Assembly (NCBI GenBank): GCA_964620805.1
Contig: CAZUJQ010000002.1
Location: forward strand, 6,253-70,252
Reading direction: 5' to 3'
From: an uncultured Planctomycetales bacterium
GTDB lineage: Bacteria; Omnitrophota; Gorgyraeia; Zapsychrales; JAHFFX01
Length of the DNA: 64,000 nucleotides
In this document: one piece after another, positions 4,297-62,435 of the stretch
How positions within the stretch are numbered: the first letter of the stretch is position 1
Layout: each line of letters starts with the position of its first letter
Translations under genes and position numbers: made by a program
The notes under the pieces: generated by a model
Database searches by the model: none
The model's input: only the letters and a program-made list of their open reading frames with translations
Told to the model about the DNA's origin: nothing

Positions 4297-4299
4297 TAA

Positions 4300-4388
4300 G
4301 TTGCCAATGTTTCCAAAGTTTCCAAGGTTTAGGAAGGCAACCTCGGCAACTTTGGCAACTTTGGCAACATGGGAAACATGGGCAACTT
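4300..4388. repeat. family-A 9-mer-arm element, copy A1 (minimal: arms abut, no core)
   Basis: (gttgccaat)(gtttccaaa)(gtttccaag)(gtttaggaa) | (ggcaacctc)(ggcaacttt)(ggcaacttt)(ggcaacatg)(ggaaacatg)(ggcaactt). Confidence 0.8.
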
Positions 4389-13283: not shown

Positions 13284-15568
13284 ATCTCCTCATAAAGCCG
13301 TTCGTATTTCTCAACCATGTGCTCCAAGGAATAATGCTTTCGGATGAAATCCGAAGCCTCCCGGCCCATCTCTAAAAAGAGACTTCTGTCTTTAACGACC
13401 CGACCCAGGACCTTGACCAATCCGGTGACATCCCCCGGTGCGACAAGAAATCCGTTTTTGCCGTGCCAAATGATTTGCGGGATCCCTCCCACTTTTGTGG
13501 CCACAACTAGACGGGCACAGGCCATGGCCTCCAAAAGCGATAGAGGCACGCCTTCGGTTAAGGAGGTTAAGACAAAGATATCCAGAGCCGGGTAGAGGGA
13601 TGAGATGTCATCGATTAAGCCGGTAAAAAGGATGTGCTTCTCTAAATTTTTGTCCCGGACCAAGGCTTTCAAATAAGTCTCCTCTGGGCCATCGCCCACG
13701 ATCAGAAATTTAACAAGGGGGAACTCTTTTTGGATTTGGTCAGCCGCTTCGATCAACATCGCTTGATTTTTTTCGCGGCTCAGGCGCCCCACCGTGCCGA
13801 TCACGGCTTCTTCGTCCGAGATCCCATAACGGCTCCGAGCCGTTTTTCTTAAAACCGGATCATAGGAAAAGCGGTTCACATCCAGGCCGTTTGGAATCAC
13901 CTGTCTTTTTTGCGCCTTCAAATCCGGCAGGATGTTCTCAGCCACAACAACCACCCGACGAAAAAATGCCTTTAAAAGCCACCTGTCCAGTTTTTCATAC
14001 CAACGGACCGGCCGGGACATTTTTGTGTATCCATGGACCGTGGCGAGGAGGGGAACACCGTTTCCAGCCGTTGCCAGCAATCCCATAAGATCGGATTTGT
14101 AGTTGTGGGTATGGACAATATCAATTCGGTTTTGCCGGATAAATTTCTTTAGTAGCCGGCTGGTCCTCCAATCCCATCGTCCCCGGCTTTTAAATAAGGC
14201 GGTCTTCAGCCCCGCCTCCCGGGCCTTGTGGACAATCTCCAGATGAGGATTTCTCTCATCTTCGATGGCACCGATCATGGGGATAAATTTCCCGTGGTTC
14301 AAATGACGGGCCAGTGACAGGGCCACCCGCTCTGCGCCGAAAAAGCCTCCGCTGCTTATAAAATGTAAAACTTTTTTTATTAAAAGGGCCTGATAAAAAT
14401 TTTCGTATTCCCTCATCATCTGAGGAATGGTAAATTCTTTCTGGGCTCTTTGTCGTGCGTTTTGGCCCATGCTTTGTCTTTTCTCGGGATCCTCAATGAG
14501 TGTGAGCAAGGCCTCCTTTAAGGCCCGGGAATCGCCGGGGGCCACCAAAAGGCCATCCACCCCCTCCCGGATGAGTTCGGGATTGCCGCCCACACGGGTG
14601 GCGACCACGGCCTTGCCGGCCGCCATGTATTCTAAGATGGCGTTGGAGGTGCCTTCGCTCAAAGAGGGCAACACACAGATATCCGCGGCCTCGATAAAAC
14701 GCGAGACATCTTCGCGTTTTCCAAGAAAAAGGACATGCCTTTCCAATCTCTTTTTTCTGATGATCTCTTGTAGCTTTCCCCCCATTTTGTCTTCACCAAT
14801 CAACGCCAATCGGACCCGCGGATGGTCTACCACGATCTCCGGCAAGGCCTCGATGAGATAGATATGCCCTTTGACTGGCCGAAGATTCGCCACATGCACA
14901 ATTAAGGAAATGGGGTCACACCCCATTTCCCCACTTGAGGGAAATGGGGTGTGACCCCATTTTATTGGTGATTCCACGCCGTTATAGATCACCTCAATCC
15001 GCTCCGCGGGGATTCCCTCTTCTTTCATCATCCTCTCTTTTACGGCACCGGCCACCGCAATGAAGGTGTGCACCCAGCGGTTGATCAACTTGTAGGCGCT
15101 TCGATGAATGGGCTTGCGGCAGAACCCCATGTCCCGCCGGTTCGACACAATATGACGGACTCCCGCCCAATGCGCCCAGAACGTGCCCCAGATATCTGAT
15201 CCGAAATGATAGGTTTGGAGGATCTGGATGCGGTTGGCTTTGAGAAACCGCATAAAGCGGAGGCCCTGCACCATCCCCGAGATCCCGTAGATTCTCACCA
15301 CGCGGAAAACCTGGAATTCGCAGCCCGCCTCCCGCATCAGCTGTTGGGTGGACTCACAGATAGGATTCAGGCTGAGAACGAACACTCGATACCGTGAAGG
15401 GTCAAGATGAGAGATGAGCTGGTAAATCTGCTTTTCTGCCCCGGCCTGGAGGTCTTCCAGGACGTCGGTGAGCAATGCTAGGCGGATGGGTTGAGTGTTT
15501 TTCATATGAATATAAAATGTTGCTAATGTTTCCAAGGTTTCCAAAGTTGCCGAGGTTACCTGATTCAT
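13280..15568 (-). CDS. two-module glycosyltransferase (GT4-GT4 fusion); true start probably ATG at 15505 (MKNTQP...)
   Basis: Two successive GT-B GT4 units in one 762-aa ORF. The first 21 codons (MNQVTSATLETLETLATFYIH) are encoded by the family-A repeat. Carries the in-frame hairpin element at 14905-14962. Confidence 0.6.
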   Translation of the reverse strand: MNQVTSATLETLETLATFYIHMKNTQPIRLALLTDVLEDLQAGAEKQIYQLISHLDPSRYRVFVLSLNPICESTQQLMREAGCEFQVFRVVRIYGISGMVQGLRFMRFLKANRIQILQTYHFGSDIWGTFWAHWAGVRHIVSNRRDMGFCRKPIHRSAYKLINRWVHTFIAVAGAVKERMMKEEGIPAERIEVIYNGVESPIKWGHTPFPSSGEMGCDPISLIVHVANLRPVKGHIYLIEALPEIVVDHPRVRLALIGEDKMGGKLQEIIRKKRLERHVLFLGKREDVSRFIEAADICVLPSLSEGTSNAILEYMAAGKAVVATRVGGNPELIREGVDGLLVAPGDSRALKEALLTLIEDPEKRQSMGQNARQRAQKEFTIPQMMREYENFYQALLIKKVLHFISSGGFFGAERVALSLARHLNHGKFIPMIGAIEDERNPHLEIVHKAREAGLKTALFKSRGRWDWRTSRLLKKFIRQNRIDIVHTHNYKSDLMGLLATAGNGVPLLATVHGYTKMSRPVRWYEKLDRWLLKAFFRRVVVVAENILPDLKAQKRQVIPNGLDVNRFSYDPVLRKTARSRYGISDEEAVIGTVGRLSREKNQAMLIEAADQIQKEFPLVKFLIVGDGPEETYLKALVRDKNLEKHILFTGLIDDISSLYPALDIFVLTSLTEGVPLSLLEAMACARLVVATKVGGIPQIIWHGKNGFLVAPGDVTGLVKVLGRVVKDRSLFLEMGREASDFIRKHYSLEHMVEKYERLYEEI
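14905..14962. repeat. in-frame palindromic hairpin pair (GGAAATGGGGT-cac-ACCCCATTTCC ... GAAATGGGGT-gtg-ACCCCATTT) inside the GT4-GT4 gene
   Basis: Two 11-bp-stem hairpins 8 nt apart; translated in frame as 'KWGHTPFPSSGEMGCDPIS'. The same element recurs at 22584-22665. Confidence 0.75.
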
Positions 15569-15723
15569 CCAACATTCTTAAAGTTGCCCTTAAGTTGCCC
15601 AAGGTTACTGATTGATCCGACAATTTGTTGTTGGGTTAAGGCTTTGCAACCTCAAATAACCTTTCTGCAACCTCAAAAGGGCAACCTCGGCAACCTCGGC
15701 AACATGGGAAACATAGGCAACTT
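15519..15723. repeat. family-A element copy A2
   Basis: Left arm gttgctaat-gtttccaag-gtttccaaa-gttgccgag-gttacc; core tgattcatccaacattcttaaagttgcc; right arm ggcaacctc-ggcaacctc-ggcaacatg-ggaaacata-ggcaactt. Confidence 0.8.
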
Positions 15724-17150: not shown

Positions 17151-17323
17151 GTTGCCTTTGTTTCCAGTGTTTCCGAGGTTGCCGATGTTAATTTATTTAC
17201 GTGACATTTTTAAGGTTGCTTAATGTTGCCTGATGTTGTCTTTTCCAACCTTTAGTAACTTCAGGCAACATCTTGAAAGGCAACCTTGGTAACTTTGGCA
17301 ACATAGGAAACATTGGCAACTTT
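17151..17323. repeat. family-A element copy A3 (core variant, leader ORF disrupted)
   Basis: gttgccttt-gtttccagt-gtttccgag-gttgccgat ... ggcaacctt-ggtaacttt-ggcaacata-ggaaacatt-ggcaacttt. Confidence 0.8.
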
Positions 17324-17891
17324 ATCTTGCCTCTTTACGAGGTTTGCTTTGAACCCTCGCCGGCACCCCCACAACCGTCGCCCCTTCCGGAACATCATCG
17401 ATCACGACCGAATTGGCGCCGACACGGGCATGATTTCCCACGCGGATCGCCCCCAAGACTTTTGCCCCGGTGCCGATGTACACACCATCGCCAATCACCG
17501 GCACGCCAGAATCTCCCAGTCCTCTGGTCCCAATGACGACGCCCGGGCCAATCGAGCAGTTCTCTCCCATCACGACATCGCTATGGAGGATGATTCCCCC
17601 AAAGTGGCCTACGTACAGTCCCCTCCCAATCTGAGCGCTGGCCGGAAGCGAGATGCCGGTCGTCATCTCAATCCATTTGAAGAGCAAAAACACCTCAAGA
17701 CGCAGGAGATGAGAGATCAACGGAAATTTCAAAGCCTGCGCCCACCGGCCGAAACGATACACCGCCAACGCCCAGATTCCCTGCTCGAAGAAAAGGTATA
17801 TCCGGTCTTGTCTCCGGCTATTTCGAAGATACCGGCGAATGTCTGCTGTGAAATTTGGGAACATCATGGTATAAGTTTCCAACGTTTCCAT
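17322..17891 (-). CDS. hexapeptide-repeat acetyltransferase (serine acetyltransferase-like / WcaB-like); start probably MMFPNF at ~17866
   Basis: Left-handed beta-helix hexapeptide repeats ('IGPGVVIGTRG', 'IGDGVYIGTGAKVLGAIRVGNHARVGANSVV') preceded by a SAT-like N-terminal helical region. The first 8 codons come from a degenerate repeat. Confidence 0.55.
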   Translation of the reverse strand: METLETYTMMFPNFTADIRRYLRNSRRQDRIYLFFEQGIWALAVYRFGRWAQALKFPLISHLLRLEVFLLFKWIEMTTGISLPASAQIGRGLYVGHFGGIILHSDVVMGENCSIGPGVVIGTRGLGDSGVPVIGDGVYIGTGAKVLGAIRVGNHARVGANSVVIDDVPEGATVVGVPARVQSKPRKEAR

Positions 17892-17894
17892 CGT

Positions 17895-18707
17895 TTATGC
17901 TTTGTTTGGACAAAGCAATCTCAAAACATTCTCTTTCGTAAAGACCTTCATGTCCAACGGATTCTCCAGGAAATTCACCACATCGCGGTGCACCTTCCGC
18001 CAGTCGGCTTTATCCACCACTTGATAGAGGAAATCCCGCCAATTGTCTTCCCGCGGGATCTCCTTTGTCCATCCCGTTTGCGTCAAGGCATTATGCAGCA
18101 ACCGAATGTTGGGTTTGATATCCCTCCAGCGGGATAGATACCATCCCAAATCAAAAAAGTCCCGGCCTTTGGTGTATTTGCGGCTCAGCAAAGCAGACAC
18201 TTTGCCGGCAAAGAATGACGGAAGATCGAAGGTCAAAAAGGCAAGCGGAAAATATTTGTTGATGATTTGTATTTCGAGCCGGCTGCCCTCAGGCGGGTTG
18301 GTATCAATTTCGATCTTGACCGATAATTTCTGTTTTTTTAACGGGGAGAGACCTGCTTCATACAGCAGTCCCTCGAACTTAACAAAGGCCGATTGAACCG
18401 TTTTGACTTCATTGTAAGTCACCGAAACGTTGTAGCCGGCCAGATCCAATTCCTGCTTGAGCTTCTTGATGAGCTTGACAAAAGACAATGTCCTGCCTTG
18501 TACATGGGAAAAGTCCAAATCCTCGGAAAAGCGAGGCAGATTGTGCAAAAACCGCAGGGCCGTTCCTCCCCAAAAAGCCGTTGTTTGAAAAATCCCGTCA
18601 TCATGGAGAATCCTTAAGACATAGGCCTGCAGATATTCCCGCATCGTATTGAGCCTGACCTGGGATCCTTCCTTCGCGCCCGTCAGCTCTAGGAGGTAGT
18701 CTTTCAT
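17895..18707 (-). CDS. nucleotidyltransferase AbiEii/AbiGii toxin family protein
   Basis: 'FWGGTALRFLHNLPRFSEDLDFS' (DUF1814/AbiEii signature); 4-nt overlap with the upstream AbiEi-like gene. Confidence 0.65.
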   Translation of the reverse strand: MKDYLLELTGAKEGSQVRLNTMREYLQAYVLRILHDDGIFQTTAFWGGTALRFLHNLPRFSEDLDFSHVQGRTLSFVKLIKKLKQELDLAGYNVSVTYNEVKTVQSAFVKFEGLLYEAGLSPLKKQKLSVKIEIDTNPPEGSRLEIQIINKYFPLAFLTFDLPSFFAGKVSALLSRKYTKGRDFFDLGWYLSRWRDIKPNIRLLHNALTQTGWTKEIPREDNWRDFLYQVVDKADWRKVHRDVVNFLENPLDMKVFTKENVLRLLCPNKA

Positions 18708-20305: not shown

Positions 20306-20323
20306 TGGCGTTACTCGTAAGTA

Positions 20324-20624
20324 TCATTGCGACCCCGCCGTAGTTTGGCGGGGGAAGCAATCTTTTTACAATTTATCCCATAAATCTCCCCATGTAGAAA
20401 ACGCTGGTATAGGCTTCGTTCTTCTTCGCTCTCAGCCAAAGGCTGATCCGCCTCTGGCAGAAAATGTTCTTGCGTTTGCCCGCCCCGGCTATCGTGACTA
20501 GGCGGGCCAGGGAGCTTCGAAGGAACGATTCCTACGAAGCTCAAACATGAAAGTATTCGAGCGGAGAATAAAAGATTGCTTCGTCGCTTCGCTCCTCGCA
20601 ATGACACATTCCTCGCATGACACA
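20324..20624. repeat. family-B palindromic element core (TCATTGCGA...GAAGCAATCTTTT // AAAAGATTGCTTC...CTCGCAATGACA) split by a ~200-bp insertion that carries further repeat modules
   Basis: Left part 20324-20368 and right part 20568-20606 match the cores at 29731-29838 and 62458-62560. The insert contains 'AGAAAACGCTGGTATAGGCTTCG' (also at 24333) and 'CGAAGGAACGATTCCTACGAAGC'. Confidence 0.65.
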
Positions 20625-20636
20625 TGGAGAATAAGC

Positions 20637-21637: not shown

Positions 21638-21802
21638 GTTGCCGATGTTTCCAAGGTTTCCGAGGTTGCCAAGGTTACCCTATTCATCTGACATCCTTTA
21701 AGGTTGATTGAGGTTATCTATGAGGGAAACCTCACGTAACTTTAGGCAACCTCTAAGAGGCAACCTTGGTAACTTTGGCAACATAGGAAACATCGGCAAC
21801 CT
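21638..21802. repeat. family-A element copy A4
   Basis: gttgccgat-gtttccaag-gtttccgag-gttgccaag-gttaccct; core attcatctgacatcctttaaggttg; right arm ggcaacctt-ggtaacttt-ggcaacata-ggaaacatc-ggcaacctg. Confidence 0.8.
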
Positions 21803-21820: not shown

Positions 21821-23098
21821 TTAGACGCCGCCCCCAAACGCCTTGATGGCCTCCTGATAAGCCTTAAGCGATTCTTCCACTAATTTTTGATAGGAATAGG
21901 CTGTCCGGACCTTCTTTAACCCGTTGGCAGCCAGTTTAAGGCGTAACGCCTCATCTTGCAAGAGACGCAGGATGGCCTTCGCCAGCATCATAGCGTCCCC
22001 GGGATTAACCAGCAGGCCGTCTTTTTCGTGATGAATCAATTCTTTTAAACCTCCAGCGGTGGAAGCGATGAGGGCGCACCCCGAGGCCATCGCCTCCAGG
22101 GCGCTTAAGGGCAAACCCTCATCGTAAGAAGGCATGATCAGGATGGAACTTTTTCTTAACCAAATTTTAAGCTGATCCGGTGGCAATGTCCCCAGATATT
22201 CAAAATTTTTTGCTCCTATGGCTTCCCGCAGCATTTGACTGTTTTTCTTTCCATCAGAGGAGAAGGCATCAGCGCCCGCGACCGCCAATTGGACGTCAGG
22301 GAATTCTTTAATGACCAGGGGCAGGGCTTGGGCCATCACATCAATGCCTTTTCTTGGAATCAATCGACCGGCAAACAGGATCTGGCAAGGATCTTTTTTT
22401 CCATTGGGAGAGAAAATTTGACTATCAACCGCGTTATAAATGGTCTTGATATTCCGATTAATCCTCCAGACCTGCTTTACGAAATCCGCCGTATCCCTAG
22501 AGACCGCCGCCAAGCCATCCGCCTTAAGCAGGGTGTCCCGCTGCATGGCCCAAGAGATTCGCTCCTTTAAGCTCAAGGTGGTTGAAATGGGGTCACACCC
22601 CATTTCCCTGCCTAACGTTTCCTGGGTTGGAAATGGGGTTGGAAATGGGGTGTGACCCCATTTCCTAGACCATCCGTGCAGGCGAAAAAAGACCGGAAGG
22701 CGATTGTGGCGCCGGGCGTAAATAAACCCTTGCCGGAAATAATCGAAAGTTTCCACGATATCCAGGGCATATTCCGCTTGGACGGACTCGATTTTCTTCG
22801 CCACGGCTTTCGAATACCGCAAATCATTCAAGGGAAGAAACCGCTCAATCTTCCAGACCCCCGGGAAGAGATCGTCATCAAAGGGGACGTGGTGAACAAA
22901 AATATTTTGTCCCAATCGGCCGCGGTTTAAATCCCCTTCGTCCTGGCAAAGGATATGGACGGAGTGCCCCGCCTCACTCAAGGCCCTGGCATAATGGGCC
23001 GTGAAGGTCTCGATCCCGCCGGAATCTTGGTGAAAATTTCGACACAAAAGACAGATGTTCATCGGACTCCCCATCTCTCTCTTACTCAAGGGATTCAA
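21821..23098 (-). CDS. glycosyltransferase family 4
   Basis: GT-B fold, 'ILIMPSYDEGLPLSALEAMASGCALIASTAGG'. Carries the in-frame hairpin element at 22584-22665 ('RKWGHTPFPTPFPTQETLGREMGCDPIS'). Confidence 0.7.
   Translation of the reverse strand: MNPLSKREMGSPMNICLLCRNFHQDSGGIETFTAHYARALSEAGHSVHILCQDEGDLNRGRLGQNIFVHHVPFDDDLFPGVWKIERFLPLNDLRYSKAVAKKIESVQAEYALDIVETFDYFRQGFIYARRHNRLPVFFRLHGWSRKWGHTPFPTPFPTQETLGREMGCDPISTTLSLKERISWAMQRDTLLKADGLAAVSRDTADFVKQVWRINRNIKTIYNAVDSQIFSPNGKKDPCQILFAGRLIPRKGIDVMAQALPLVIKEFPDVQLAVAGADAFSSDGKKNSQMLREAIGAKNFEYLGTLPPDQLKIWLRKSSILIMPSYDEGLPLSALEAMASGCALIASTAGGLKELIHHEKDGLLVNPGDAMMLAKAILRLLQDEALRLKLAANGLKKVRTAYSYQKLVEESLKAYQEAIKAFGGGV
22584..22665. repeat. second copy of the in-frame palindromic hairpin pair (loop cac ... 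loop gtg), here with a 33-nt spacer holding an extra half-arm
   Basis: 'gaaatggggtcacaccccatttcc...ggaaatggggtt ggaaatggggtgtgaccccatttcc'; translated in the same frame as the copy at 14905-14962. Confidence 0.75.
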
Positions 23099-24248
23099 TC
23101 AAACCGGGAAGACCCGTAAATGTGACCTGAGTCCCTGCGTATTTCCTAGAGAACGTTCTATCTACATCCTGGGCCACAACAAAAACTTTGGCTTCAGGAT
23201 ATTGATAAAGAAAGGCCTCTAAGTTGTGACCGTCAAATTGATTAGCTTTCCATTTACATTCTATGGCAATAGGGCTAATGACCTTTCCCTTATTAGGAAT
23301 CACAAAGTCTATCTCGTGGCCTCGCTTGTCACGCCAGTAATGAATCTGGCGCTTATAAAGCTTCGCTAGAATTTCATTAAGAACATAATGTTCCCACAAA
23401 ATCCCCAAGTCCTGTTCCCGTAATTCGTACCATCCGCGGTAATAACAGACAAATCCTGTATCAAATCCATACACCTTGGGAGCTGAAATAATCTCGGTGG
23501 GACGATGAGAACTAAAAGGATGAACAATGTGAGCTACAAATGTCATCTCCAGAACCTTAAGATAATTGGTAATCGTGGTCCGACTCACCTCACAGGGAGC
23601 CGTAAATCGTGTGGCTTCAAAAATGCTCCCGCTTTGGGCCATAATCAATTCGATAAATTTTTGAAAAGAATACTTTCGCTCCAACCGAAACAATTCTTGA
23701 ATGTCCTTAGCCCAGTAAGCATCCATCCATTCCTGAAAATCAGCTTCTGGAAACTCCTTGGATAAAAGAAACGGTGGTAACCCCCCTCTTAATAAGCGAA
23801 ACTTGAAATCCTTGATTTCGAAATCCATCAGATCTTCATTAATAGCTGGAGCCAACCATATTTCCTTCTTTCTTCCTGACAACGTGTCTTTAAATTTTGA
23901 AGACGCGCCCAGAGTCGAGGAACCTGTGGCCAGAATTTTGATTCCCGGATAATGATCGGCAGCGATCTTAAGAAGCTGGGCTGGATTCTCATGCCGGTGA
24001 ATCTCATCCAACACAATACGCTCCCCCTTATTCTTAAAACTTTCCAGGAATTCTTCCGGATCTTCCATGAGGCGGCGTACCCGAGGCAACTCGCAATCGA
24101 AATATTCAACGGTATCCAAACTTTTAGACAAATACGTCTTGCCTACACGTCGGACTCCGGAAAGCCAAATCACTGAGCGCGTTTGCCATGACTTTTCTAT
24201 CTCTTTGACCCAGTAGTTTCTTTTTACCATTTGTATATATAATATCAT
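23082..24248 (-). CDS. ATP-binding protein (AAA domain + DUF4143)
   Basis: Walker A 'GVRRVGKT', Walker B 'IVLDEIH'; C-terminal DUF4143-like region. Similar in architecture to 30075..31343. Confidence 0.6.
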   Translation of the reverse strand: MILYIQMVKRNYWVKEIEKSWQTRSVIWLSGVRRVGKTYLSKSLDTVEYFDCELPRVRRLMEDPEEFLESFKNKGERIVLDEIHRHENPAQLLKIAADHYPGIKILATGSSTLGASSKFKDTLSGRKKEIWLAPAINEDLMDFEIKDFKFRLLRGGLPPFLLSKEFPEADFQEWMDAYWAKDIQELFRLERKYSFQKFIELIMAQSGSIFEATRFTAPCEVSRTTITNYLKVLEMTFVAHIVHPFSSHRPTEIISAPKVYGFDTGFVCYYRGWYELREQDLGILWEHYVLNEILAKLYKRQIHYWRDKRGHEIDFVIPNKGKVISPIAIECKWKANQFDGHNLEAFLYQYPEAKVFVVAQDVDRTFSRKYAGTQVTFTGLPGLIESLE

Positions 24249-24439
24249 TTAGTAGCACTAAATGATATTATAAATTTTTGTCGTATTTCCCCAGGAAGTT
24301 TCCTATTTTCCTACGTCTTAGTAATAGAAAACGCTGGTATAGGCTTCGGAGAATTATTCCTACGAGAATATTCTACGAAGCATATACTATCGTTTCTATT
24401 GCTTATGCGAAGTAGAATAAAGAGGAACCAAGATAATAT

Positions 24440-24545
24440 CTATGGTGTGCCCGCTCAGAGCCAAGGCTTTAGCCATTTCACAGGTGAAGGTTTCAATCCC
24501 TCCCGAATCTTTATGAAAATTTCGGCATAAAAGGCAGATGTTCAT
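24440..24545 (-). pseudogene. remnant of a GT4 gene 5' end (resembles the N-terminal codons of the GT4 at 21821..23098)
   Basis: About 70% nucleotide similarity to 22940-23060, including the start context '...aaaggcagatgttcatgg'; no extended ORF. Confidence 0.45.
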
Positions 24546-24582: not shown

Positions 24583-25150
24583 GTTTCCGATGTTTCCAAA
24601 GTTTCCGAGGTTTCCAATGTTACCTCATTGATTCGAGATGCTTTAAGGTTGCTTAACGTTGTTTCAGGTTAAATTTCATTCTTTCCGGGTGTTGTCCATT
24701 TACCTTTATTGGACGACTTGTTCATGGACTTAAGGTATTGATTACTCATGTAAAGAGCGCTTTTACATAGTTTGGTCAATTGATCGTGTTCTTGAGGATT
24801 GATTAGCTTATCTTCCAAGCAATCATCAATATCTCCGCTTAATTCTTCCAAGGATCCTTGGCTTATGCGTATGGCCTTCAGAAACTCGGCTAAACTTCCT
24901 CGGCTGTAGCCCTCCCTGATATTCTGCTTTGCTGAGCGCGTCGCGCTTCTCATCTCACTGACAAGTCTAATATGGCTTTTTTCAAATCGTGTTATGATAG
25001 CCGCAACTAACTTGCGAAGCTCGCATATGTCTTGATAAAATTTGAGCTTTTCGTATGGTCTTGCTGGCATCTGCAACCTCACATAACTTCTTTGCAACCT
25101 CCAAGAGGCAACCTCGGTAACTTCGGCAACATGGGCAACATCGGCAACCT
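24583..25150. repeat. family-A element copy A5 with the four-helix-bundle gene inserted between core and right arm
   Basis: Left arm 24583-24625 plus core ttgattcgagatgctttaaggttgcttaacg; right arm 25071-25150 begins immediately after the 4HB start codon. Confidence 0.75.
24669..25097 (-). CDS. four-helix-bundle protein (23S rRNA intervening-sequence protein family; probable start at 25070, MPARPY)
   Basis: 'SATRSAKQNIREGYSRGSLAEFLKAIRISQGSLEELSGDIDDCLE' matches the S23/IVS four-helix-bundle family. Sits entirely inside family-A repeat copy A5. Confidence 0.6.
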   Translation of the reverse strand: MQRSYVRLQMPARPYEKLKFYQDICELRKLVAAIITRFEKSHIRLVSEMRSATRSAKQNIREGYSRGSLAEFLKAIRISQGSLEELSGDIDDCLEDKLINPQEHDQLTKLCKSALYMSNQYLKSMNKSSNKGKWTTPGKNEI

Positions 25151-25204
25151 CCTTTTACAGGCTCCTCATATATTCATGAATATTTAAGGCATAGGGCTAA
25201 ATAA

Positions 25205-26632: not shown

Positions 26633-26778
26633 GAACTTGAGTTTGGCAAATTTTCGAATTTGTCGTCGGAAAAGTCTCTCGGATCGCAAAAACAGGTTTT
26701 CGATACCACAAAATTGCTTTCTCGACGAGAACTACCTGAAAATACGGCCCAAAAGCCCGAAAAAGTGCCAAACTCAAG
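26633..26778. mobile_element. MITE-like element copy 1 (146 bp, terminal inverted repeats GAACTTGAGTTTGGCA / TGCCAAACTCAAG), possible 5-bp target duplication AACCG
   Basis: 146/146 identity with 59589-59734 as far as I can align by eye; flanks '...attAACCG|aacttgag...ctcaag|AACCGaat'. Confidence 0.7.
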
Positions 26779-28745: not shown

Positions 28746-29714
28746 TCAAGAAGAAAGATAACAACTTTCGGTCTTCTCCCAACAATATTTATAAAAAATA
28801 AGAGGTAAATAGAAACACAAAAGAAGAAAGACCTTTATCTTTAGAACACGCTTTCTTTTACTCTCCTTGAATAATTCATTCCAATTCATCCAGATAAATG
28901 CATGACGTAAATTGTGCGCAAAAGAATGGTAAGGATCCTTGAGAATCGTAATCAAACGGTTGCGTCCCTGAAGTCGTATGAGCCATTCGGGTTTGGACAT
29001 ATGAGAACTCATGTGGGCACCCATGTGGTAGTGCAACACACGGCTATTTGTCACACAGGCAATCCTAAATCCTCGGAATTTGGCCCTTCTGGAGAAATCA
29101 AGATCCTCATCGTACAGAAAATAGAAGGGATCAAGTCCACCGATTTTTTTAAAGACCTCTTTCTTAACCAGCATACAGACGCCCCCCATCCAATCCACCT
29201 CATAAAATTCAGAAAGGTGTCCTTTCTTCTGATCTTCCATATAACTTGTGCGAGCAAGCATTTTTGACCGGAAAATGTAATCGATTTCTTTCCCTTCATA
29301 ATCATATTGAATAGGGCCTAGAATTCCTATGTCGGGGTGGACCTGGAAGACTTTGATCATTTCCGTTAACCAGGTGCGCTCGGCTTTAATATCTTGATTT
29401 AAGATTCCAACATAGTTTGCATTCCTTTTGATGGCCTCCTGAATCCCAAGATTGTAAGCCGATGATCCGAGATTCTTCTTGCATCGAATAAGCAAAATAT
29501 TTTTGAAGTTGTGTTCAATGTAAGAAGGACTGTCATCCGTGGAGTGATTATCAACGGCAATGACCTGGAGATTAGAATAGTCCGTTTCCAGAAGGGAACG
29601 CAGGCATAAATCTATCCATTTTTTCCCGTTATAAATCAAGACCACCAAGGTGACACGTGGCCAACGATCGCTTTTCATAAGGGTCCTTCCCTCCCTTCTA
29701 GTCGGTATTGTCAA
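28746..29714 (-). CDS. glycosyltransferase family 2
   Basis: 'VTLVVLIYNGKKWIDLCLRSLLETDYSNLQVIAVDNHSTDDS', 'YDEDLDF'. Confidence 0.6.
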   Translation of the reverse strand: MTIPTRREGRTLMKSDRWPRVTLVVLIYNGKKWIDLCLRSLLETDYSNLQVIAVDNHSTDDSPSYIEHNFKNILLIRCKKNLGSSAYNLGIQEAIKRNANYVGILNQDIKAERTWLTEMIKVFQVHPDIGILGPIQYDYEGKEIDYIFRSKMLARTSYMEDQKKGHLSEFYEVDWMGGVCMLVKKEVFKKIGGLDPFYFLYDEDLDFSRRAKFRGFRIACVTNSRVLHYHMGAHMSSHMSKPEWLIRLQGRNRLITILKDPYHSFAHNLRHAFIWMNWNELFKESKRKRVLKIKVFLLLCFYLPLIFYKYCWEKTESCYLSS

Positions 29715-29908
29715 AAGTTATTAACTTTGGTGTCATTGCGAGCCATCGTTGATATTTCGTTTTGGCGAAGCAATCTTTTTAGACGATCTCAAAGATTGCT
29801 TCGTCGTCGCTAAAAAGCGCTCCTCCTCGCAATGACACGATCTGGCATCCCCAAGTTTCATACTAATATTCTTTTTGATACCTACTCTTCATAAAACTTT
29901 TGACAGTA
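29708..29908. mobile_element. family-B MITE-like element (TIRs TTGTCAAAAGTT ... AACTTTTGACA with internal multi-hairpin core TGTCATTGCGAG...CTCGCAATGACA)
   Basis: Matches 62436-62630 in the same architecture, and the core at 20324-20624. Confidence 0.6.
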
Positions 29909-32977: not shown

Positions 32978-34249
32978 CTATACGTTGCCGAAGGGGAAAG
33001 TAGGGACAGCGCCCACTTTTGAAAAAGTAGGCGCTGTCCCTACTTTCCGAATTTCCTCCCAGGCCCGAAGAGCCAGGCTGTCAGGAATCTCCAAATCCTG
33101 GAAGGTCAAGATTTGCTCGGGTTCAACCGTTCTCTTGACGAGGGCGTTATGCACCAACCCCAAGGGCATATGCCCCGGATGTTCGGTCATTTTGACCGTC
33201 ACGCCCCGCAAAGAAAAGCTTCCCATGCCATGGGGAATCGATTCTCCCGGTGATAATTTCTTTTTCGCGATCGCGGCGATGCTGACTGTAGGACGGCTAG
33301 AGTTGTTGAGAAGAGCCGATCTTCCTTCAAAAGCCCTGCGAATAGTTTTAGGAATTTCCAGATGGCAGAGAATATGATTTTTAAAGAGCGAATAATAGGG
33401 TCCCTCTCCTAGTTTGAAATAATCCAGGGCCTGCTGCTGCACTTCGTCATGTTCCGCGATTAGAAAAATTTTGAAATGCGATTTGGCGATGACCGTGTAA
33501 TCGCTGATCGCTTGGCCGAGGCGCTTGGCTTCCTCAGCCAGGATATTCACGCACTCCTGAAAATTCTTAGTCTGGGGGCCCAGCATCCCGGTCTGTAGAA
33601 TAGTGGCGTTGAGGCCGTTGGCTATCAAGGCTTGCTCATACTGCATCTTGGTTCCATCGGTCGCGGCTGTGACCATGCCTAAAGTCAATCTCTGTTTCCT
33701 GGACCAAAATTGCATGTTTTCCAAAGACGGATTGGGATCGTAGAATCCCTTGACATTGCCAAAGACCAAGGGCCGAAATCCCATTTGGACAGCGTCCTCA
33801 TGGAGGGCCGCCAGGCAGCCGGGTTGATCTCCTTCGGCCTCGGTCAGATAACCTTTGTCCACAAAAAAAGAACCGGTCGTCACGTGGAATTCAGAGTTCA
33901 TGGTGACGACCGGAAGGCCCGCTTGAAAAGCGCGGTTGACAACCTCGGTGGCATGCAGAACATCGCCGCTACATTCCACGATCAAATCGGAATGGTCGAT
34001 GAGTTCGTCCAGAGAATTGGTCATAAGGTCCGACCGCGGGAATTCCCAACAGGAAGCAATGGGCCGGCGGGTCAAAACTTTGGAGACCGCGAAATCCTGC
34101 ACATTCTGCATGGCGAGCATAAAGCCCCGGGCGATGAATCCTGAGCCGACGACACCGATTTTTTTGATGGAACTTTTCATGGTTTTAAATTGCTCAAATG
34201 TTTCCAATGTTTCCGAAGTTTCCGAGGTTGCCAAGGTTATCTTATTCAT
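32978..34249 (-). CDS. NAD(P)-binding oxidoreductase with C-terminal SAF-like domain (COG4091-like); start probably MKSSIKK at 34180
   Basis: 'IGVVGSGFIARG' Rossmann motif. The first 23 listed codons are repeat-encoded. Confidence 0.4.
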   Translation of the reverse strand: MNKITLATSETSETLETFEQFKTMKSSIKKIGVVGSGFIARGFMLAMQNVQDFAVSKVLTRRPIASCWEFPRSDLMTNSLDELIDHSDLIVECSGDVLHATEVVNRAFQAGLPVVTMNSEFHVTTGSFFVDKGYLTEAEGDQPGCLAALHEDAVQMGFRPLVFGNVKGFYDPNPSLENMQFWSRKQRLTLGMVTAATDGTKMQYEQALIANGLNATILQTGMLGPQTKNFQECVNILAEEAKRLGQAISDYTVIAKSHFKIFLIAEHDEVQQQALDYFKLGEGPYYSLFKNHILCHLEIPKTIRRAFEGRSALLNNSSRPTVSIAAIAKKKLSPGESIPHGMGSFSLRGVTVKMTEHPGHMPLGLVHNALVKRTVEPEQILTFQDLEIPDSLALRAWEEIRKVGTAPTFSKVGAVPTFPFGNV

Positions 34250-34364
34250 TCCGACATTCTTAAGGTTAATTAACGTTGCCTGACGTTTTCAACCTTTTGT
34301 AACTTCGGGTAACCTCTAAAAGGCAACTTCGGCAACGTCGGCAACCTGGGAAACATTGGCAACA
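34190..34364. repeat. family-A element copy A6
   Basis: gtttccaat-gtttccgaa-gtttccgag-gttgccaag-gttatctta; core ttcattccgacattcttaaggttaattaacgttgcc; right arm ggcaacttc-ggcaacgtc-ggcaacctg-ggaaacatt-ggcaacata. Confidence 0.8.
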
Positions 34365-34370
34365 TAATCA

Positions 34371-35402
34371 CTAAGCATCCACCTCCGTAACTTCCATCAC
34401 CTTCTTAACCTCCATAACCTCATTAACCTTAAATTCCCTTTCCTTGAGCTTCTGGAGCCAATCCTCATGCTCGACATACCATTGAATCGTCCGGTCTAAA
34501 CCTTTCTCAAAATCAACAGAAGGCCTCCAGCCCAGTTCATCTTGAATTTTATGAGAATCAATCGCGTAGCGGCGGTCATGTCCCAGGCGATCCTCCACAA
34601 ACTCGATCAAAGACTCCGGTTTTCTTAGTTTTTTCAATAGCAATTTCACGAGATCGATGTTTCGCCATTCGTTGCTCCCCCCGATGTTATAGATCTCCCC
34701 CAACCGGCCTTTTTGCAGGACGACGTCAATCGCCCGGCAATGATTCTCTACGTAGAGCCAATCCCGGACATTCAGCCCGTCCCCGTAGACCGGCAATTTC
34801 TTATTGGCCAGGGCGTTGTTGATCATAAGAGGAATGAGTTTCTCCGGATACTGGTAGGGCCCGTAATTGTTGGAGCAGCGCGTGATGATCGCGGGAAACT
34901 TATATGTTTCATAATAGGATCGGACCAGGCAATCAGAGCCGGCCTTGCTGGCGGAATAAGGGCTGTTGGGCATAAGGGGTGAAGTCTCCAGGAAATAACC
35001 GCTGTGGCCCAAAGTGCCGTAGACCTCGTCCGTTGAGACATGAATGAATCTTTTCACTTGAGCCCTCATGGCCGCCTCTAAAAGATGGTAAGTGCCCAGG
35101 ACATTGGTGCGGACAAAAGCGGAGGCATCCTTGATGCTGCGGTCCACATGGGTTTCCGCGGCAAAATGAACCACATAAGCCGCACCTTCCATGGCCTTCC
35201 AGACATCGTCGAACTCCGCAATGTCTCCCAGGACGAAATTGTAGTGCGGATCGTCTTCTAGATCTCGAAGGTTGTTGAGATTGCCGGCGTAGGTGAGCTT
35301 GTCCAGATTAACGATGGCAACATCGGGATGAGTTCCCATCATATACCGCACAAAGTTTGATCCGATGAATCCGCAGCCACCGGTGACGAGTATTTTTTTC
35401 AT
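34371..35402 (-). CDS. rfbB: dTDP-glucose 4,6-dehydratase
   Basis: 'MKKILVTGGCGFIGSNFVRYM', YxxxK and full-length similarity pattern to RfbB. Confidence 0.8.
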   Translation of the reverse strand: MKKILVTGGCGFIGSNFVRYMMGTHPDVAIVNLDKLTYAGNLNNLRDLEDDPHYNFVLGDIAEFDDVWKAMEGAAYVVHFAAETHVDRSIKDASAFVRTNVLGTYHLLEAAMRAQVKRFIHVSTDEVYGTLGHSGYFLETSPLMPNSPYSASKAGSDCLVRSYYETYKFPAIITRCSNNYGPYQYPEKLIPLMINNALANKKLPVYGDGLNVRDWLYVENHCRAIDVVLQKGRLGEIYNIGGSNEWRNIDLVKLLLKKLRKPESLIEFVEDRLGHDRRYAIDSHKIQDELGWRPSVDFEKGLDRTIQWYVEHEDWLQKLKEREFKVNEVMEVKKVMEVTEVDA

Positions 35403-38197: not shown

Positions 38198-38397
38198 GTT
38201 GCCGATGTTTCCAGAGTTTCCGAGGTTTCCGATGTTACCTGATTCATCCGACATCCTTTAAGGTTGCTTAAGGCTGTCTTTCTGAACCTCTTGTAACCTT
38301 AGGGAAACCTCTGAAAAGGCAACCTCGGCAACCTGCCTGCCATTTGCAGTGTCAATCGGCAGGCAGGCATTGGCAACGTTGGAAACATGGGCAACCT
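38198..38397. repeat. family-A element copy A7 (right arm interrupted by a 36-bp palindrome at 38333-38368)
   Basis: gttgccgat-gtttccaga-gtttccgag-gtttccgat-gttacctga; core ttcatccgacatcctttaaggttgcttaagg; right arm ggcaacctc-ggcaacctg-[cctgcctgcc...ggcaggcagg]-ggcaacgtt-ggaaacatg-ggcaacctt. Confidence 0.8.
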
Positions 38398-62269: not shown

Positions 62270-62435
62270 CCTAGCCCAATCCGCATTTTCTGTTAAGACT
62301 ATTAAAGTCTACCCAGAAACTTTCCTTAAGTCTTTGTTTCTCTGGAATAATTTTCAAACAGTTGATGAGCCAAAAGGCCAGAATGAGTATCACAATTGTT
62401 TCTATCATATTTACCTCCTTGCTTACTCTGCAGTT

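What the first reader, a model, noticed from the sequence alone, without database searches (positions are those of the whole stretch)
24583..25150. One cassette copy carries a four-helix-bundle (23S-rRNA IVS-family) gene in its centre, echoing rRNA intervening sequences
In copy A5 the left arm and core lie at 24583-24660, the four-helix-bundle ORF at 24669-25070, and the right arm starts at 25071, directly after the ATG.

This protein family was first found as ORFs inside the stem-loop intervening sequences that RNase III excises from 23S rRNA. Here a homologous gene sits in the loop of an analogous long inverted-repeat structure, outside any rRNA.

This suggests the cassettes are IVS-like RNase III substrates, with the 4HB gene as their occasional cargo. 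It may point to the origin of rRNA IVS elements. The same family also includes the DGR Avd protein, but no RT is present here.
Basis: partly seen in the sequence, partly recalled or inferred. Interest (0 to 1): 0.8.

Follow-up and report, generated by a model that had tools for sequence, protein, structure and literature searches.

The report
IVS-type hairpin gene element outside rRNA
A small four-helix-bundle gene sits exactly in the loop of a long hairpin built from short tandem repeats between two sugar-pathway genes; the same gene-plus-repeat design surrounds this gene family in many bacterial phyla and inside a 23S ribosomal RNA intervening sequence, pointing to one widespread insertion element for which I found no prior description.

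Summary
Cassette A5 (24583-25151) has five 9-mers (GTTKCCNNN), a core, a minus-strand 133-aa ORF (24669-25070) that passes PF05635 and TIGR02436, then the mirror core and five GGMAACNNN 9-mers. Aligned with six ORF-less copies in the same operon, the ORF replaces only the hairpin loop.

The design is general. Of 60 homologous genes from about ten phyla, 75% have a short tandem repeat upstream and its reverse complement downstream, against 7% of control genes. Finished cyanobacterial and Riemerella plasmids show it too. So does a true 23S rRNA intervening sequence (IVS) in Azospirillum (GACRGAN heptamers), and published Coxiella IVS data describe tandem heptamers before the ORF and inverted terminal repeats.

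Picosynechococcus PCC 7003 and 7002 differ by exactly arms+ORF+arms (429 nt), so the module is a discrete insertion unit. The protein is under strong purifying selection, and repeat period and core track protein clade.

The 4HB gene looks like the defining gene, not occasional cargo. RNase III cleavage remains untested: covariation and G-U tests gave no RNA-specific signal. I rate it a new variant of a known kind, of high interest.

The parts
24583..24627 (.). A5 arm of five 9-mers (GTTKCCNNN on the + strand). It is the downstream arm in the sense of the minus-strand genes, where it reads GGWAAC.
   Evidence: aligned with the other copies
24628..24668 (.). A5 inner core on the stop-codon side. 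It includes a conserved asymmetric box (sense strand AAAGCATCTCGAATCAATGAGGTAAC, about 24619-24644 on the + strand, overlapping the innermost arm unit GTTACCTCA at 24619-24627) and degenerate inner units. The ORF stop codon is part of the last unit (GGTTAA).
   Evidence: the box is shared by the window copies and by the elements in L007 and L005
24669..25070 (-). Four-helix-bundle gene, 133 aa, PF05635/TIGR02436, basic (pI 9.3). It fills the hairpin loop.
   Evidence: AF2 model pLDDT 90.4. Foldseek to 2GSC: TM 0.9 normalised to the target, 0.78-0.80 to the query. Avd 4DWL/8UB7: target-normalised TM about 0.8, at non-significant E-values of 0.09-0.4. PHROG Avd E 8e-6.
25071..25106 (.). A5 inner core on the start-codon side. 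It contains the GAGG Shine-Dalgarno-like motif (25077-25080, minus strand) 6 nt before the ATG.
25107..25151 (.). A5 arm of five 9-mers (GGMAACNNN on the + strand). It is the upstream arm in gene sense, where it reads GTTKCC.
4298..4386 (.). Short ORF-less copy: arms only, no core. It lies 1 nt after the stop of the upstream gene.
   Evidence: fold z -5.5 and -6.2
15519..15721 (.). ORF-less copy with a duplicated core and box.
17151..17320 (.). ORF-less copy.
21638..21802 (.). ORF-less copy. The outer 15 bp are perfectly complementary.
34200..34365 (.). ORF-less copy.
38198..38395 (.). ORF-less copy carrying a roughly 38-nt secondary palindrome (38333-38370) inside one arm.
17875..17896 (.). 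Isolated fragment of two to three GTTTCC 9-mers at the start of a gene.
34380..34429 (-). Orphan array of GAGGTTA-type 9-mers, a different unit subfamily. It is read in frame as the C-terminal tail of the epimerase gene 34371-35402.

Best explanation
A5 is an intact member of a widespread family of compact insertion modules. Each module is a PF05635 four-helix-bundle gene bracketed by inverted arrays of short tandem repeats. Units are 7-10 nt and lineage-specific, with typically 3-5 per arm. The six neighbouring ORF-less hairpins are gene-less relatives. ORF-bearing 23S rRNA intervening sequences are members of the same family that landed in rRNA.

Shown:
- The module inserts in the short spacer between co-directional genes, often right after a stop codon.
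- The arms can pair into a long imperfect stem whose loop is exactly the ORF. In the clade the window protein belongs to, the Shine-Dalgarno-like AGG/GAGG often lies in the last upstream unit and the stop codon TAA in the first downstream unit.
- In one pair of sister strains, arms plus gene are gained or lost as one unit.
- The protein and the non-coding arms are both under constraint.

Inferred:
- The module is transcribed by read-through of the host operon.
- As in rRNA IVSs, RNase III cuts the stem. This would excise or inactivate the 4HB message and split the polycistron in a non-coding place, so the insertion costs the host little.
- The basic protein binds the repeated units, on RNA or DNA. 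It probably forms a pentameric ring like XCC0516 and Avd. Binding would control its own expression or processing, and possibly the spread of the module.
For: Anatomy of A5 and the ORF at the apex. The arms pair in the minimum-energy fold of the 586-nt transcript. ORF-less copies fold with z -5.5 to -12.

Generality:
- Close homologues L004/L007, L005 and L006 have arms.
- In 60 genes from 80 loci, a 5-mer repeated at least 3 times upstream with its reverse complement at least 3 times downstream occurs in 53%, against 0.9% of 433 control ORFs.
- The flank inverted-repeat score exceeds the control 95th percentile in 80%.
- A blind scan for inverted tandem arrays recovered two untargeted 4HB genes and no other cargo.
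- A Uma2 gene inserted at the same cas10-cmr3 junction has no arrays.

Finished genomes (Nostoc, Trichormus, Picosynechococcus, Riemerella) show the same design.

True IVS: the Azospirillum 23S gene (Rfam 2529 bits) holds a 4HB ORF between GACGGAT/GACAGAG heptamer arrays that form a stem of about 25 bp. The Coxiella IVS has tandem GACAGAT heptamers, and RNase III cleavage was shown in vitro (PMC4990558).

Insertion unit: the PCC 7003 versus PCC 7002 indel is 429 nt and equals arms+ORF+arms.

Transcription dependence: both neighbours are co-oriented with the 4HB gene in 41 of 52 loci and both opposed in 4 of 52.

Selection:
- pN is 0.08-0.11 with synonymous sites saturated. dN/dS is 0.04-0.07 in two closer pairs.
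- Arms plus core are 73-75% identical between organisms, against 44-53% at third codon positions.
- Repeat period and core track protein clade.

Protein:
- The fold matches the XCC0516 pentamer well. It resembles Avd in the DGR ribonucleoprotein more weakly, at non-significant Foldseek E-values.
- Median pI is 9.4.
- Avd contacts a specific RNA element (bioRxiv 10.1101/2023.10.23.563531).
Against: - No experiment exists on this element or its host.
- RNAalifold on six copies gives a positive (unfavourable) covariation term. Only 4 of 48 pairs show compensatory change.
- G-U pairs are not enriched on the sense strand: 125 versus 103, p 0.16. 58% of arm mismatches are transversions. The pairing could be a by-product of two inverted arrays of one conserved motif.
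- The A5 stem is interrupted about every 9 nt. Its whole-transcript z-score is only -2.1. The Azospirillum IVS stem is near-perfect.
- Copies within the window are 76-82% alike, so none is recent. Public contigs of this locus are identical, so there is no insertion polymorphism for this copy.
- No target-site duplication was seen.
- The protein has no known catalytic motif.
- In Coxiella the ORF seems not to be translated.
- The sample of 4HB genes was fetched with two peptide patterns and is not a random sample of PF05635.
Confidence: 0.55

Rival explanations
1. DNA-level transposon or MITE. The arrays are subterminal binding sites, as in Mu, Tn7 or Ac/Ds ends. The 4HB oligomer or a host recombinase binds them on double- or single-stranded DNA. 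The ORF-less copies are non-autonomous derivatives, and the RNA hairpin is incidental.
For: - A motif is conserved in both arms without compensatory change, and there is no G-U strand asymmetry.
- Both strands fold equally well.
- There are seven copies in 40 kb, and close homologues sit in unrelated contexts.
- PCC 7003 and PCC 7002 differ by a clean 429-nt presence/absence.
- Ralph and McClelland's old proposal that the IVS ORF serves mobility is quoted in PMC4990558.
Against: - No target-site duplication at seven window copies or at the PCC 7003 junction.
- No transposase, integrase or RAYT in the window.
- The 133-aa helical bundle has no nuclease or recombinase motif.
- The strong co-orientation with host transcription (41 versus 4) is not expected for a purely DNA-level element.
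- Window copies are old, at 76-82% identity.
Confidence: 0.2
2. Host-serving operon punctuation. The hairpins would be REP/BIME-like or Correia-like intergenic elements that stabilise upstream mRNA, attenuate read-through or uncouple translation within the long polysaccharide operon. The 4HB gene would be an occasional passenger.
For: - Six of seven window copies have no ORF.
- All lie 1-53 nt after a stop codon and 12-37 nt before the next start, in one orientation.
- The non-coding sequence is conserved across organisms.
- Five of seven copies are followed by a short UUAU-type tract.
Against: - Across phyla the arrays go with 4HB genes, and the unit changes with the protein clade.
- No other cargo was seen.
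- A different small gene at the same junction lacks arrays.
- The empty site in PCC 7002 has no hairpin at all.
- There is no general T-run after the downstream arm: mean 3.4 T in 10 nt against 2.6 background.
- Promoter-like and terminator-like scans are not enriched.
Confidence: 0.12
3. Orphan or remnant of a diversity-generating retroelement: an Avd gene that lost its reverse transcriptase and template repeat.
For: PHROG 'Avd protein of DGR' E 8e-6. Foldseek finds Avd with a similar fold, TMt about 0.8, though at non-significant E-values of 0.09-0.4.
Against: - No reverse transcriptase in 64 kb.
- No TR/VR-type long near-identical repeats near the gene.
- The flanks are 9-nt tandem units, not a template repeat.
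- The protein is closer to XCC0516 and BT_0352 than to Avd.
- The same architecture recurs in dozens of loci without a reverse transcriptase next to it.
Confidence: 0.03
4. Chance resemblance or an assembly artefact of repeats in metagenome bins.
For: Most loci are MAG contigs, and repeats break assemblies. Several public contigs end near repeats.
Against: - Pattern counts are about 50-100 times expectation.
- The identical locus was assembled independently in ENA, JGI and Logan data.
- Finished plasmids of cultured strains show the same design.
Confidence: 0.01

Closest known systems
ORF-containing intervening sequences of 23S rRNA (Leptospira, Coxiella burnetii; here also Azospirillum lipoferum AZO_p2)
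   Same: - A PF05635/S23p four-helix-bundle ORF sits in the loop of a long terminal inverted repeat.
- The stem is built from short tandem repeats next to the ORF: GACAGAT in Coxiella (PMC4990558), GACRGAN in Azospirillum.
- The element is transcribed as part of a host transcript.
- ORF-less versions also exist: by my own recollection (not checked here), the Salmonella-type IVSs are about 100 nt and lack an ORF.
   Different: - A5 lies between protein-coding genes, not in helix 9, 25 or 45 of 23S rRNA.
- The unit is a 9-mer (GTTKCCNNN), not a heptamer.
- The stem is much more mismatched.
- The ORF looks translatable and is under purifying selection, whereas the Coxiella ORF is decaying and the Azospirillum ORF lacks a nearby start codon.
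- RNase III cleavage has not been shown.
Correia elements of Neisseria and REP/BIME or ERIC-type intergenic palindromes (compared from my own knowledge of these families, not from a tool result)
   Same: - Small (about 90-200 nt) imperfect palindromes in many copies between genes of operons, co-transcribed with them.
- Correia hairpins are RNase III substrates.
- They are thought to be MITE-like.
   Different: - The arms here are arrays of tandem 9-mers rather than a unique terminal inverted repeat.
- No TA duplication.
- There is a dedicated, conserved protein gene (4HB) that occupies the loop in full-length copies.
- The family spans many phyla, with lineage-specific units.
Cyanobacterial short tandemly repeated repetitive (STRR) heptamer sequences
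   Same: Tandem heptamers in intergenic regions of Nostocales. The 4HB genes on Nostoc and Trichormus plasmids are flanked by AGTCAGG/AGTCAGA-type heptamer arrays.
   Different: STRRs are described as stand-alone repeats. A link to PF05635 genes or to inverted pairing was not found in the literature I could search. Whether the classical STRR families are the same thing was not tested.
Avd of diversity-generating retroelements
   Same: Same fold and superfamily. Avd is a basic pentameric barrel that contacts a specific RNA element and is essential for its partner enzyme.
   Different: - No reverse transcriptase, template repeat or variable repeat here.
- Sequence identity to Avd is 6-10% in the structural alignment.
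- Avd genes are not known to be bracketed by inverted tandem arrays (not tested here).
TRAP-type ring proteins binding tandem RNA triplet repeats (an analogy drawn from my own knowledge; no tool tested it)
   Same: It is a precedent for a homo-oligomeric ring reading evenly spaced short repeats on one nucleic-acid strand.
   Different: No homology, and no evidence yet that the 4HB ring binds the units. The number of units per arm varies from 2 to 11 rather than matching five subunits.

Membership tests
PF05635 / TIGR02436 four-helix-bundle (23S rRNA IVS protein, S23p) family | Score above the curated cut-off of the family models | tested here: met
   PF05635 58.7 bits against 33.8, covering profile positions 1-103 of 106. 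TIGR02436 49.4 bits against 24.
PF05635 / TIGR02436 four-helix-bundle (23S rRNA IVS protein, S23p) family | Up-down four-helix bundle like XCC0516 (2GSC) and BT_0352 (2RLD) | tested here: met
   AF2 model pLDDT 90.4, pTM 0.83. Foldseek: 2GSC E 2e-5, TMt 0.92, rmsd 1.3 A; 2RLD prob 1.0. phmmer to 2GSC E 5.8e-6.
PF05635 / TIGR02436 four-helix-bundle (23S rRNA IVS protein, S23p) family | Homopentameric ring | not testable with these tools
   Only a monomer model could be made. The pentamer is known for 2GSC and Avd (PMC4990558).
rRNA intervening sequence (IVS) | Inserted within an rRNA gene (helix 9, 25 or 45 of 23S) | tested here: not met
   No rRNA in the window (Rfam). The element lies between the Wzt gene and a glycosyltransferase fragment.
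rRNA intervening sequence (IVS) | Terminal inverted repeats forming a long stem that encloses the loop or ORF | tested here: met
rRNA intervening sequence (IVS) | S23p/4HB ORF in the loop with short tandem repeats adjoining it (the ORF-bearing subclass) | tested here: met
   Window. Reference cases: Azospirillum IVS and Coxiella.
rRNA intervening sequence (IVS) | Excision by RNase III without religation | not testable with these tools
   Needs transcript-end mapping or an in vitro assay.
Diversity-generating retroelement | DGR-clade reverse transcriptase next to the Avd-like gene | tested here: not met
   No RVT family among the window genes.
Diversity-generating retroelement | Template and variable repeat pair | tested here: not met
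   Direct-repeat scan: the only long repeats are the cassette arms, a coding repeat, a 146-nt pair and short palindromic motifs.
MITE / DNA transposon | Terminal inverted repeats | tested here: met
   Inverted arrays.
MITE / DNA transposon | Target-site duplication | tested here: not met
   No direct repeat at the ends of the seven window copies or at the PCC 7003 junctions compared with the empty PCC 7002 site.
MITE / DNA transposon | Cognate transposase in autonomous copies | tested here: not met
   The only gene in full-length copies is the 4HB gene, which matches no transposase family.
MITE / DNA transposon | Presence/absence polymorphism at orthologous sites | tested here: inconclusive
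   Met for a family member: PCC 7003 versus PCC 7002, a 429-nt indel. Not observable for the window copies, because the public contigs are identical.
Integron attC site | Core sites GTTRRRY / RYYYAAC flanking an imperfect palindrome, with an integrase nearby | tested here: not met
   The units GTTKCCN and GGMAAC do not fit R/Y at the required positions (sequence). No integrase in the window.

The most novel reading that the evidence does not exclude
PF05635 genes with their inverted tandem-repeat arrays form a phylum-spanning, autonomous class of selfish elements. The ring-shaped 4HB protein would read its own repeat units and drive propagation. It could do so through an excised hairpin RNA and a reverse transcriptase recruited in trans (the role Avd plays in DGRs), or through an unknown DNA mechanism. 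ORF-bearing rRNA intervening sequences, ORF-less intergenic hairpins such as the six in this window, cyanobacterial STRR arrays and DGR Avd would all descend from this element.
Probability: 0.2. Interest if true: 0.9.

Novelty: new variant of a known kind. Interest (0 to 1): 0.72.

Why it matters
Thirty-year-old questions become testable. rRNA intervening sequences and their conserved ORF have been known since the early 1990s. Their origin, and the function of the 'S23p' four-helix-bundle family outside DGRs, are still open (PMC4990558).

The IVS looks like the rRNA-borne tip of a much larger family. That family inserts between ordinary genes in many phyla, always with the same repeat-armed design and with gene-less hairpin relatives. 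Concrete experiments follow:
- RNase III mapping.
- Binding of the protein to its own repeat units.
- Comparison of filled and empty sites.

These can be done in tractable organisms such as Picosynechococcus, Nostoc, Riemerella, Xanthomonas XCC0516 and Bacteroides BT_0352.

There are practical consequences too:
- The arrays mislead gene callers. Two starts in this window are called inside arms, and one array is translated as a protein tail.
- They break assemblies.
- They may explain a reported association of this family with CRISPR loci. In PCC 7003 the gene sits between cas10 and cmr3.

Tried and rejected
1. Arm-pattern scan of metagenome contigs (GTTTCCNNNGTTTCCNNNGTTKCC). None had the mate arm. 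The scan was wasted.
2. Polymorphism among public contigs of the same locus (L001-L003, L207, L208). All are 99.99-100% identical to the window, so they give no insertion polymorphism.
3. Compensatory base changes (RNAalifold on six copies) and G-U strand asymmetry. Neither gave a signal for an RNA-specific helix.
4. Intrinsic-terminator reading. There is no general T-run after the downstream arm, and consensus scans are not enriched.
5. Promoter in the conserved box: nothing found by the sigma-70-type scan. The box has a partial IHF-like WATCAA half-site by eye. I treat that as a lead only.
6. Integron attC, DGR and classical MITE readings: defining features were not met (see the membership tests).
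7. Rfam: no family matches any copy.
8. Host identity: the exact protein carries no name in the collection. Named homologues are mostly Candidatus Omnitrophota MAGs. The host stays undetermined.
9. Ralph and McClelland 1993 (PMC47033) is not held, so the Leptospira IVS termini could not be read.
10. Look-up of the 1102-aa window protein failed. That part of the window was annotated with Pfam instead.
11. A resemblance of GGTTAC units to the complement of the 16S 3' region (GUAACAAGGUAACC, recalled from my own knowledge and not checked with a tool) was considered. I dropped it as a likely coincidence, because other clades use unrelated units.
Full report
**The observation**

Read on the + strand it consists of:
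- 24583-24627: five 9-mers (GTTTCCGAT GTTTCCAAA GTTTCCGAG GTTTCCAAT GTTACCTCA).
- 24628-24668: a 41-nt core.
- 24669-25070: an ORF on the minus strand. The stop TAA is at 24669-24671 and the ATG at 25068-25070.
- 25071-25106: a 36-nt core.
- 25107-25151: five 9-mers (GGCAACCTC GGTAACTTC GGCAACATG GGCAACATC GGCAACCTC).

The two 9-mer patterns occur 34 and 38 times in the window. Shuffles give 0.65 and 0.32.

Six further copies share the arms and core but have no ORF: 4298-4386, 15519-15721, 17151-17320, 21638-21802, 34200-34365 and 38198-38395. In a joint alignment the left half of A5 matches their left halves up to the apex. The right half matches from the apex on. The ORF therefore replaces only the loop.

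The ORF-less copies fold into long imperfect hairpins on either strand (z -5.5 to -12). In the 586-nt A5 transcript the two arms pair in the minimum-energy structure. The whole-transcript z-score is only -2.1.

**The gene**

- The 133-aa product passes Pfam PF05635 (58.7 bits, cut-off 33.8) and NCBIfam TIGR02436 (49.4 bits, cut-off 24).
- An AlphaFold model from 24 homologues is confident (pLDDT 90.4). It superposes on the Xanthomonas XCC0516 pentamer subunit (2GSC, TMt 0.92, rmsd 1.3 A) and on BT_0352. More distantly, and at non-significant Foldseek E-values (0.09-0.4), it resembles Avd, free and in the DGR ribonucleoprotein.
- A phage-family library gives a weak Avd match (E 8e-6). A defence library gives none.
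- GAGG lies 6 nt before the ATG.
- The protein is basic (pI 9.3), as are its relatives (median 9.4).

**Context**

- Positions 1-43 kb are one long minus-strand polysaccharide/exosortase cluster. It encodes Wza, Wzz, Rml-type enzymes, many glycosyltransferases, Wzm, Wzt, Wzy and EpsH.
- Positions 44-64 kb hold mostly housekeeping genes.
- All seven copies lie in the cluster and in one orientation. They sit 1-53 nt after the stop of the upstream gene and 12-37 nt before the next start.
- The window has no rRNA.
- It has no reverse transcriptase, transposase or integrase.
- It has no template/variable-repeat pair.
Named homologues are mostly Candidatus Omnitrophota MAGs.

**The design is general**

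This is the main result. The three closest homologues sit in unrelated places: between a radical-SAM gene and queG, between an epimerase and a nucleotidyltransferase, and between wzm and wzt. All are bracketed by tandem 9-mers upstream and their reverse complement downstream.

I then fetched 80 loci from species-representative genomes with a profile of the family. They cover Omnitrophota, Planctomycetota, Bacteroidota, Verrucomicrobiota, Nitrospirota, Patescibacteria, Saganbacteria, Ignavibacteriales, Zixibacteria and a deltaproteobacterium. In 60 complete genes:

| Test: a 5-mer repeated upstream, with its reverse complement equally repeated downstream (within 100 nt each) | 4HB genes (60) | Control ORFs in the same loci (433) |
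|---|---|---|
| at least 2 times | 75% | 6.7% |
| at least 3 times | 53% | 0.9% |
| at least 4 times | 23% | 0% |

A Smith-Waterman score of upstream flank against the reverse-complemented downstream flank exceeds the control 95th percentile in 80% of the genes.

Further checks:
- A scan that knows nothing about genes looked for inverted tandem arrays in 866 kb. Every pair separated by 330-690 nt enclosed a 4HB ORF. Two of these were not the genes the loci had been fetched for (L019 10925-11368, L086 3240-3811).
- Pairs separated by 6-100 nt were ORF-less hairpins. No other cargo appeared. Caveat: the loci were chosen for containing a 4HB gene, so only their flanks are an unbiased sample.
- As a negative control, a Uma2 endonuclease gene sits at the very junction that holds a 4HB module in a related plasmid. 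It has no arrays.
- Arms begin a median of 10 nt from the start and stop codons and have mostly 3-5 units.
- In the clade of the window protein, the stop codon TAA is often the first three bases of the first downstream unit (TAACC). The last upstream unit (AGGTTA) supplies the Shine-Dalgarno-like AGG.

**Finished genomes and a true IVS**

tblastn of a heptamer-clade protein against finished plasmids found 33 records. The flanks are again heptamer or octamer arrays in Nostoc punctiforme pNPUN02, Trichormus variabilis plasmid C, Riemerella anatipestifer and Picosynechococcus PCC 7003. In PCC 7003 the gene lies between cas10 and cmr3.

One hit, on Azospirillum lipoferum 4B plasmid AZO_p2, had no protein annotation. 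Rfam shows that it lies inside a 23S rRNA gene (LSU_rRNA_bacteria, 2529 bits).
- The 4HB ORF is preceded by GACGGAT GACAGAG GACGGAG GACAGAA.
- It is followed by ATCCGTC CTCTGTC TTCTGTC ATCCGTC TTCTGA.
- These arrays form a near-perfect stem of about 25 bp (z -11.8).
- By its flanking sequence it sits at the helix-45 position. This is my inference.

The published Coxiella IVS has two to three tandem GACAGAT heptamers, plus a degenerate one, directly before the ORF. Their number varies among strains. RNase III cuts at the first repeat in vitro (PMC4990558).

The same GACAG core is used by free-standing modules of the related protein clade in Nitrospirota, Pirellulales and Zixibacteria (GTAGACA repeats).

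**A discrete insertion unit**

The cas10-cmr3 junction of Picosynechococcus PCC 7002 (pAQ6) matches that of PCC 7003 in two blocks totalling about 93% identity in the database search; the 91-nt and 106-nt segments immediately flanking the indel are 78% and 92% identical in a local realignment. PCC 7002 lacks 429 nt, which correspond exactly to arms + ORF + arms. Its own spacer is 13 nt and has no hairpin. In PCC 7003 the cas10 stop codon now lies in the first arm unit. No target-site duplication is visible there or at the seven window copies.

**Selection and co-variation**

- Between the window gene and its 81-85% identical relatives, synonymous sites are saturated (pS 0.81-0.91) while pN is 0.08-0.11. 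Two closer pairs give dN/dS of 0.04 and 0.07.
- With the ORF removed, arms plus core are 73-75% identical between these organisms. Third codon positions are only 44-53% identical.
- Copies within the window are barely more alike than that, at 76-82%. The non-coding part is therefore constrained, and the window copies are not recent duplicates.
- A 25-nt asymmetric box on the stop-codon side (sense AAAGnATGTCnGAATCAATnAGGTAAC) is shared by the window copies and by the two foreign elements.
- Repeat period and core follow the protein tree. The window clade (at least 41% identity) uses 9-10-mers with a GTTNC/GTTAA core. Sub-clades use GTTKCC, GGTTATA or GTTCCTTAAG. The distant clade uses heptamers such as GTAGACA, TAGGAGC, GGTGAAC, GGTTGCG and CATAGAC.
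- Both neighbours are co-oriented with the 4HB gene in 41 of 52 loci and both opposed in 4.

**RNA helix or motif array?**

At family level, the unit always changes in both arms together. That demands either pairing between the arms or symmetric recognition of both ends. Within the GTTKCC subfamily, the finer tests give no RNA-specific signal:
- RNAalifold's covariation term is unfavourable (+1.28), and only 4 of 48 pairs show compensatory change.
- G-U pairs on the sense strand (125) are not more frequent than those that would be G-U only on the antisense strand (103; p 0.16).
- 58% of mismatches are transversions, and arms are about 77% complementary.
- A general intrinsic-terminator reading is not supported.

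**How it most likely works**

Shown:
- A conserved module of a 4HB gene inside inverted tandem arrays.
- Insertion at operon junctions in the sense orientation.
- Gain or loss as a unit.
- Constraint on both the protein and the arms.
- Homology with ORF-bearing rRNA IVSs.

Inferred:
- The module is transcribed by read-through.
- The arms pair.
- As in IVSs, RNase III cuts the stem. This removes or silences the 4HB message and severs the polycistron in a harmless place. That would explain why such insertions are tolerated in rRNA and in operons alike.
- The basic protein binds the repeated units and so tunes its own expression or processing, or the persistence and spread of the module. The protein probably forms a ring. 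Avd, a structural relative (Foldseek match not significant), contacts a defined RNA element in the DGR ribonucleoprotein (bioRxiv 10.1101/2023.10.23.563531).

I put 0.55 on this composite explanation. By component:

| Component | Confidence |
|---|---|
| Family membership and IVS homology | about 0.9 |
| Discrete insertion unit | about 0.8 |
| RNase III processing | about 0.45 |
| Unit recognition by the protein | about 0.45 |

The main rival (0.2) is a DNA-level element whose arrays are subterminal binding sites.

**Comparison with what is known**

- The closest known thing is the ORF-containing 23S IVS. A5 meets its architectural features but not the defining one, location in rRNA. RNase III excision could not be tested. 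I therefore file A5 as an IVS-type element outside rRNA, not as an IVS.
- It is not a DGR: there is no reverse transcriptase and no TR/VR pair.
- It is not a classical MITE: there is no target duplication and no transposase.
- It is not an attC site.
- The ORF-less copies behave like REP or Correia-type intergenic palindromes. They differ in being arrays of tandem units tied to a dedicated protein gene.
- Cyanobacterial STRR heptamers may be the same arrays seen without their gene. This was not tested.

**Novelty**

Seven full-text searches were run. The terms covered PF05635, TIGR02436, S23p, four helix bundle protein, IVS, tandem heptamer, STRR, Avd with inverted repeats, and the DGR ribonucleoprotein structure. 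They found the Coxiella IVS paper, DGR papers and incidental annotations. None describes repeat-armed 4HB genes outside rRNA.

The idea that the IVS was once a mobile element whose ORF served mobility is old (Ralph and McClelland 1993, quoted in PMC4990558). The extra-ribosomal family that would make it testable appears not to have been described. The library lacks most subscription journals, so prior notice elsewhere cannot be excluded.

**Limits**

- The 4HB sample was retrieved with two peptide patterns and is weighted to Omnitrophota.
- DGR Avd genes proper were not surveyed.
- No part of the host genome beyond the window was available.
- A single-sequence search of 1.84 billion representatives finds 386 clusters at E of 0.001 or better. 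That understates the size of the family.

Noticed in passing
window 34380-34429 (minus strand), within gene 34371-35402: An orphan array of six 9-mers of a different unit subfamily (AAGGTTAAT GAGGTTATG GAGGTTAAG ...) lies directly upstream of copy 34200-34365. It is read in frame as the C-terminal tail KVNEVMEVKKVMEVTEVDA* of the Rml-type epimerase. Because the period is 9 nt, an arm can become coding sequence without a frameshift.
   Followed up: partly
window 15568 and 34249 (gene starts called in public contigs L001 and L207): Gene callers start the 762-aa glycosyltransferase and the 423-aa oxidoreductase at ATGs inside the arms of the hairpin copies. ATGs just outside the elements (about 15505 and 34181) look more plausible.
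   Followed up: no
window 26633-26778 and 59589-59734: Two 100% identical 146-nt copies lie 33 kb apart. Independent public contigs of this locus end exactly there (26773 and 59736). This is an assembly-breaking repeat of unknown nature, so the joins in the window at these points deserve caution.
   Followed up: partly
window 20321-20366, 20593-20625, 29688-29838, 62416-62560: A second intergenic repeat family is built on the palindromic motif GTGTCATTGCGAG ... CTCGCAATGACAC. It is unrelated to the 9-mer cassettes.
   Followed up: no
window 17895-19342 (minus); 23082-24248 and 30075-31343 (minus): An AbiEi/AbiEii pair and two AAA_14/DUF4143 ATPases are embedded in the polysaccharide operon. 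The ATPases match the PADLOC candidate system PDC-S01 (E 4e-55 and 7e-118). The cluster is a landing zone for selfish or defence genes.
   Followed up: partly
window 24396-24545 (minus): The 49-aa ORF immediately downstream of A5 is only the N-terminal stub of a WcaI-like GT4 glycosyltransferase (weak hits). One of the ATPase genes follows it, and then a full-length GT4. This looks like a gene disrupted by insertion.
   Followed up: no
window 38333-38370: A 38-nt GC-rich palindrome (CCTGCCTGCC...GGCAGGCAGG) is inserted inside one arm of copy 38198-38395.
   Followed up: no
window 14912-14958: A perfect 20-bp inverted repeat (GGGGTCACACCCCATTTCCC...GGGAAATGGGGTGTGACCCC) lies inside the coding region of the 762-aa double glycosyltransferase gene.
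   Followed up: no
L211 1501-1857 (Picosynechococcus PCC 7003 plasmid); L215 651-1205 (Synechocystis PCC 7338): The cas10-cmr3 junction of type III-B CRISPR operons is occupied by a 4HB module in one strain, by a Uma2 endonuclease gene in another, and is empty in PCC 7002. Such insertions may underlie the reported statistical association of '23S rRNA IVP' with CRISPR loci (figure legend in PMC10910872).
   Followed up: partly
L213 1429-1860 (Azospirillum lipoferum 4B AZO_p2, inside 23S rRNA): The IVS-borne 4HB reading frame has no start codon near its conserved N-terminus. The only in-frame GTG lies in rRNA sequence. As reported for Coxiella, it may not be translated.
   Followed up: partly
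window copies; L007 and L005 elements (sense-strand box AAAGnATGTCnGAATCAATnAGGTAAC): A conserved asymmetric box is predicted to be an unpaired bulge in the stem. It contains a WATCAA half-site reminiscent of IHF sites, as in Correia elements. This rests on resemblance by eye only.
   Followed up: no
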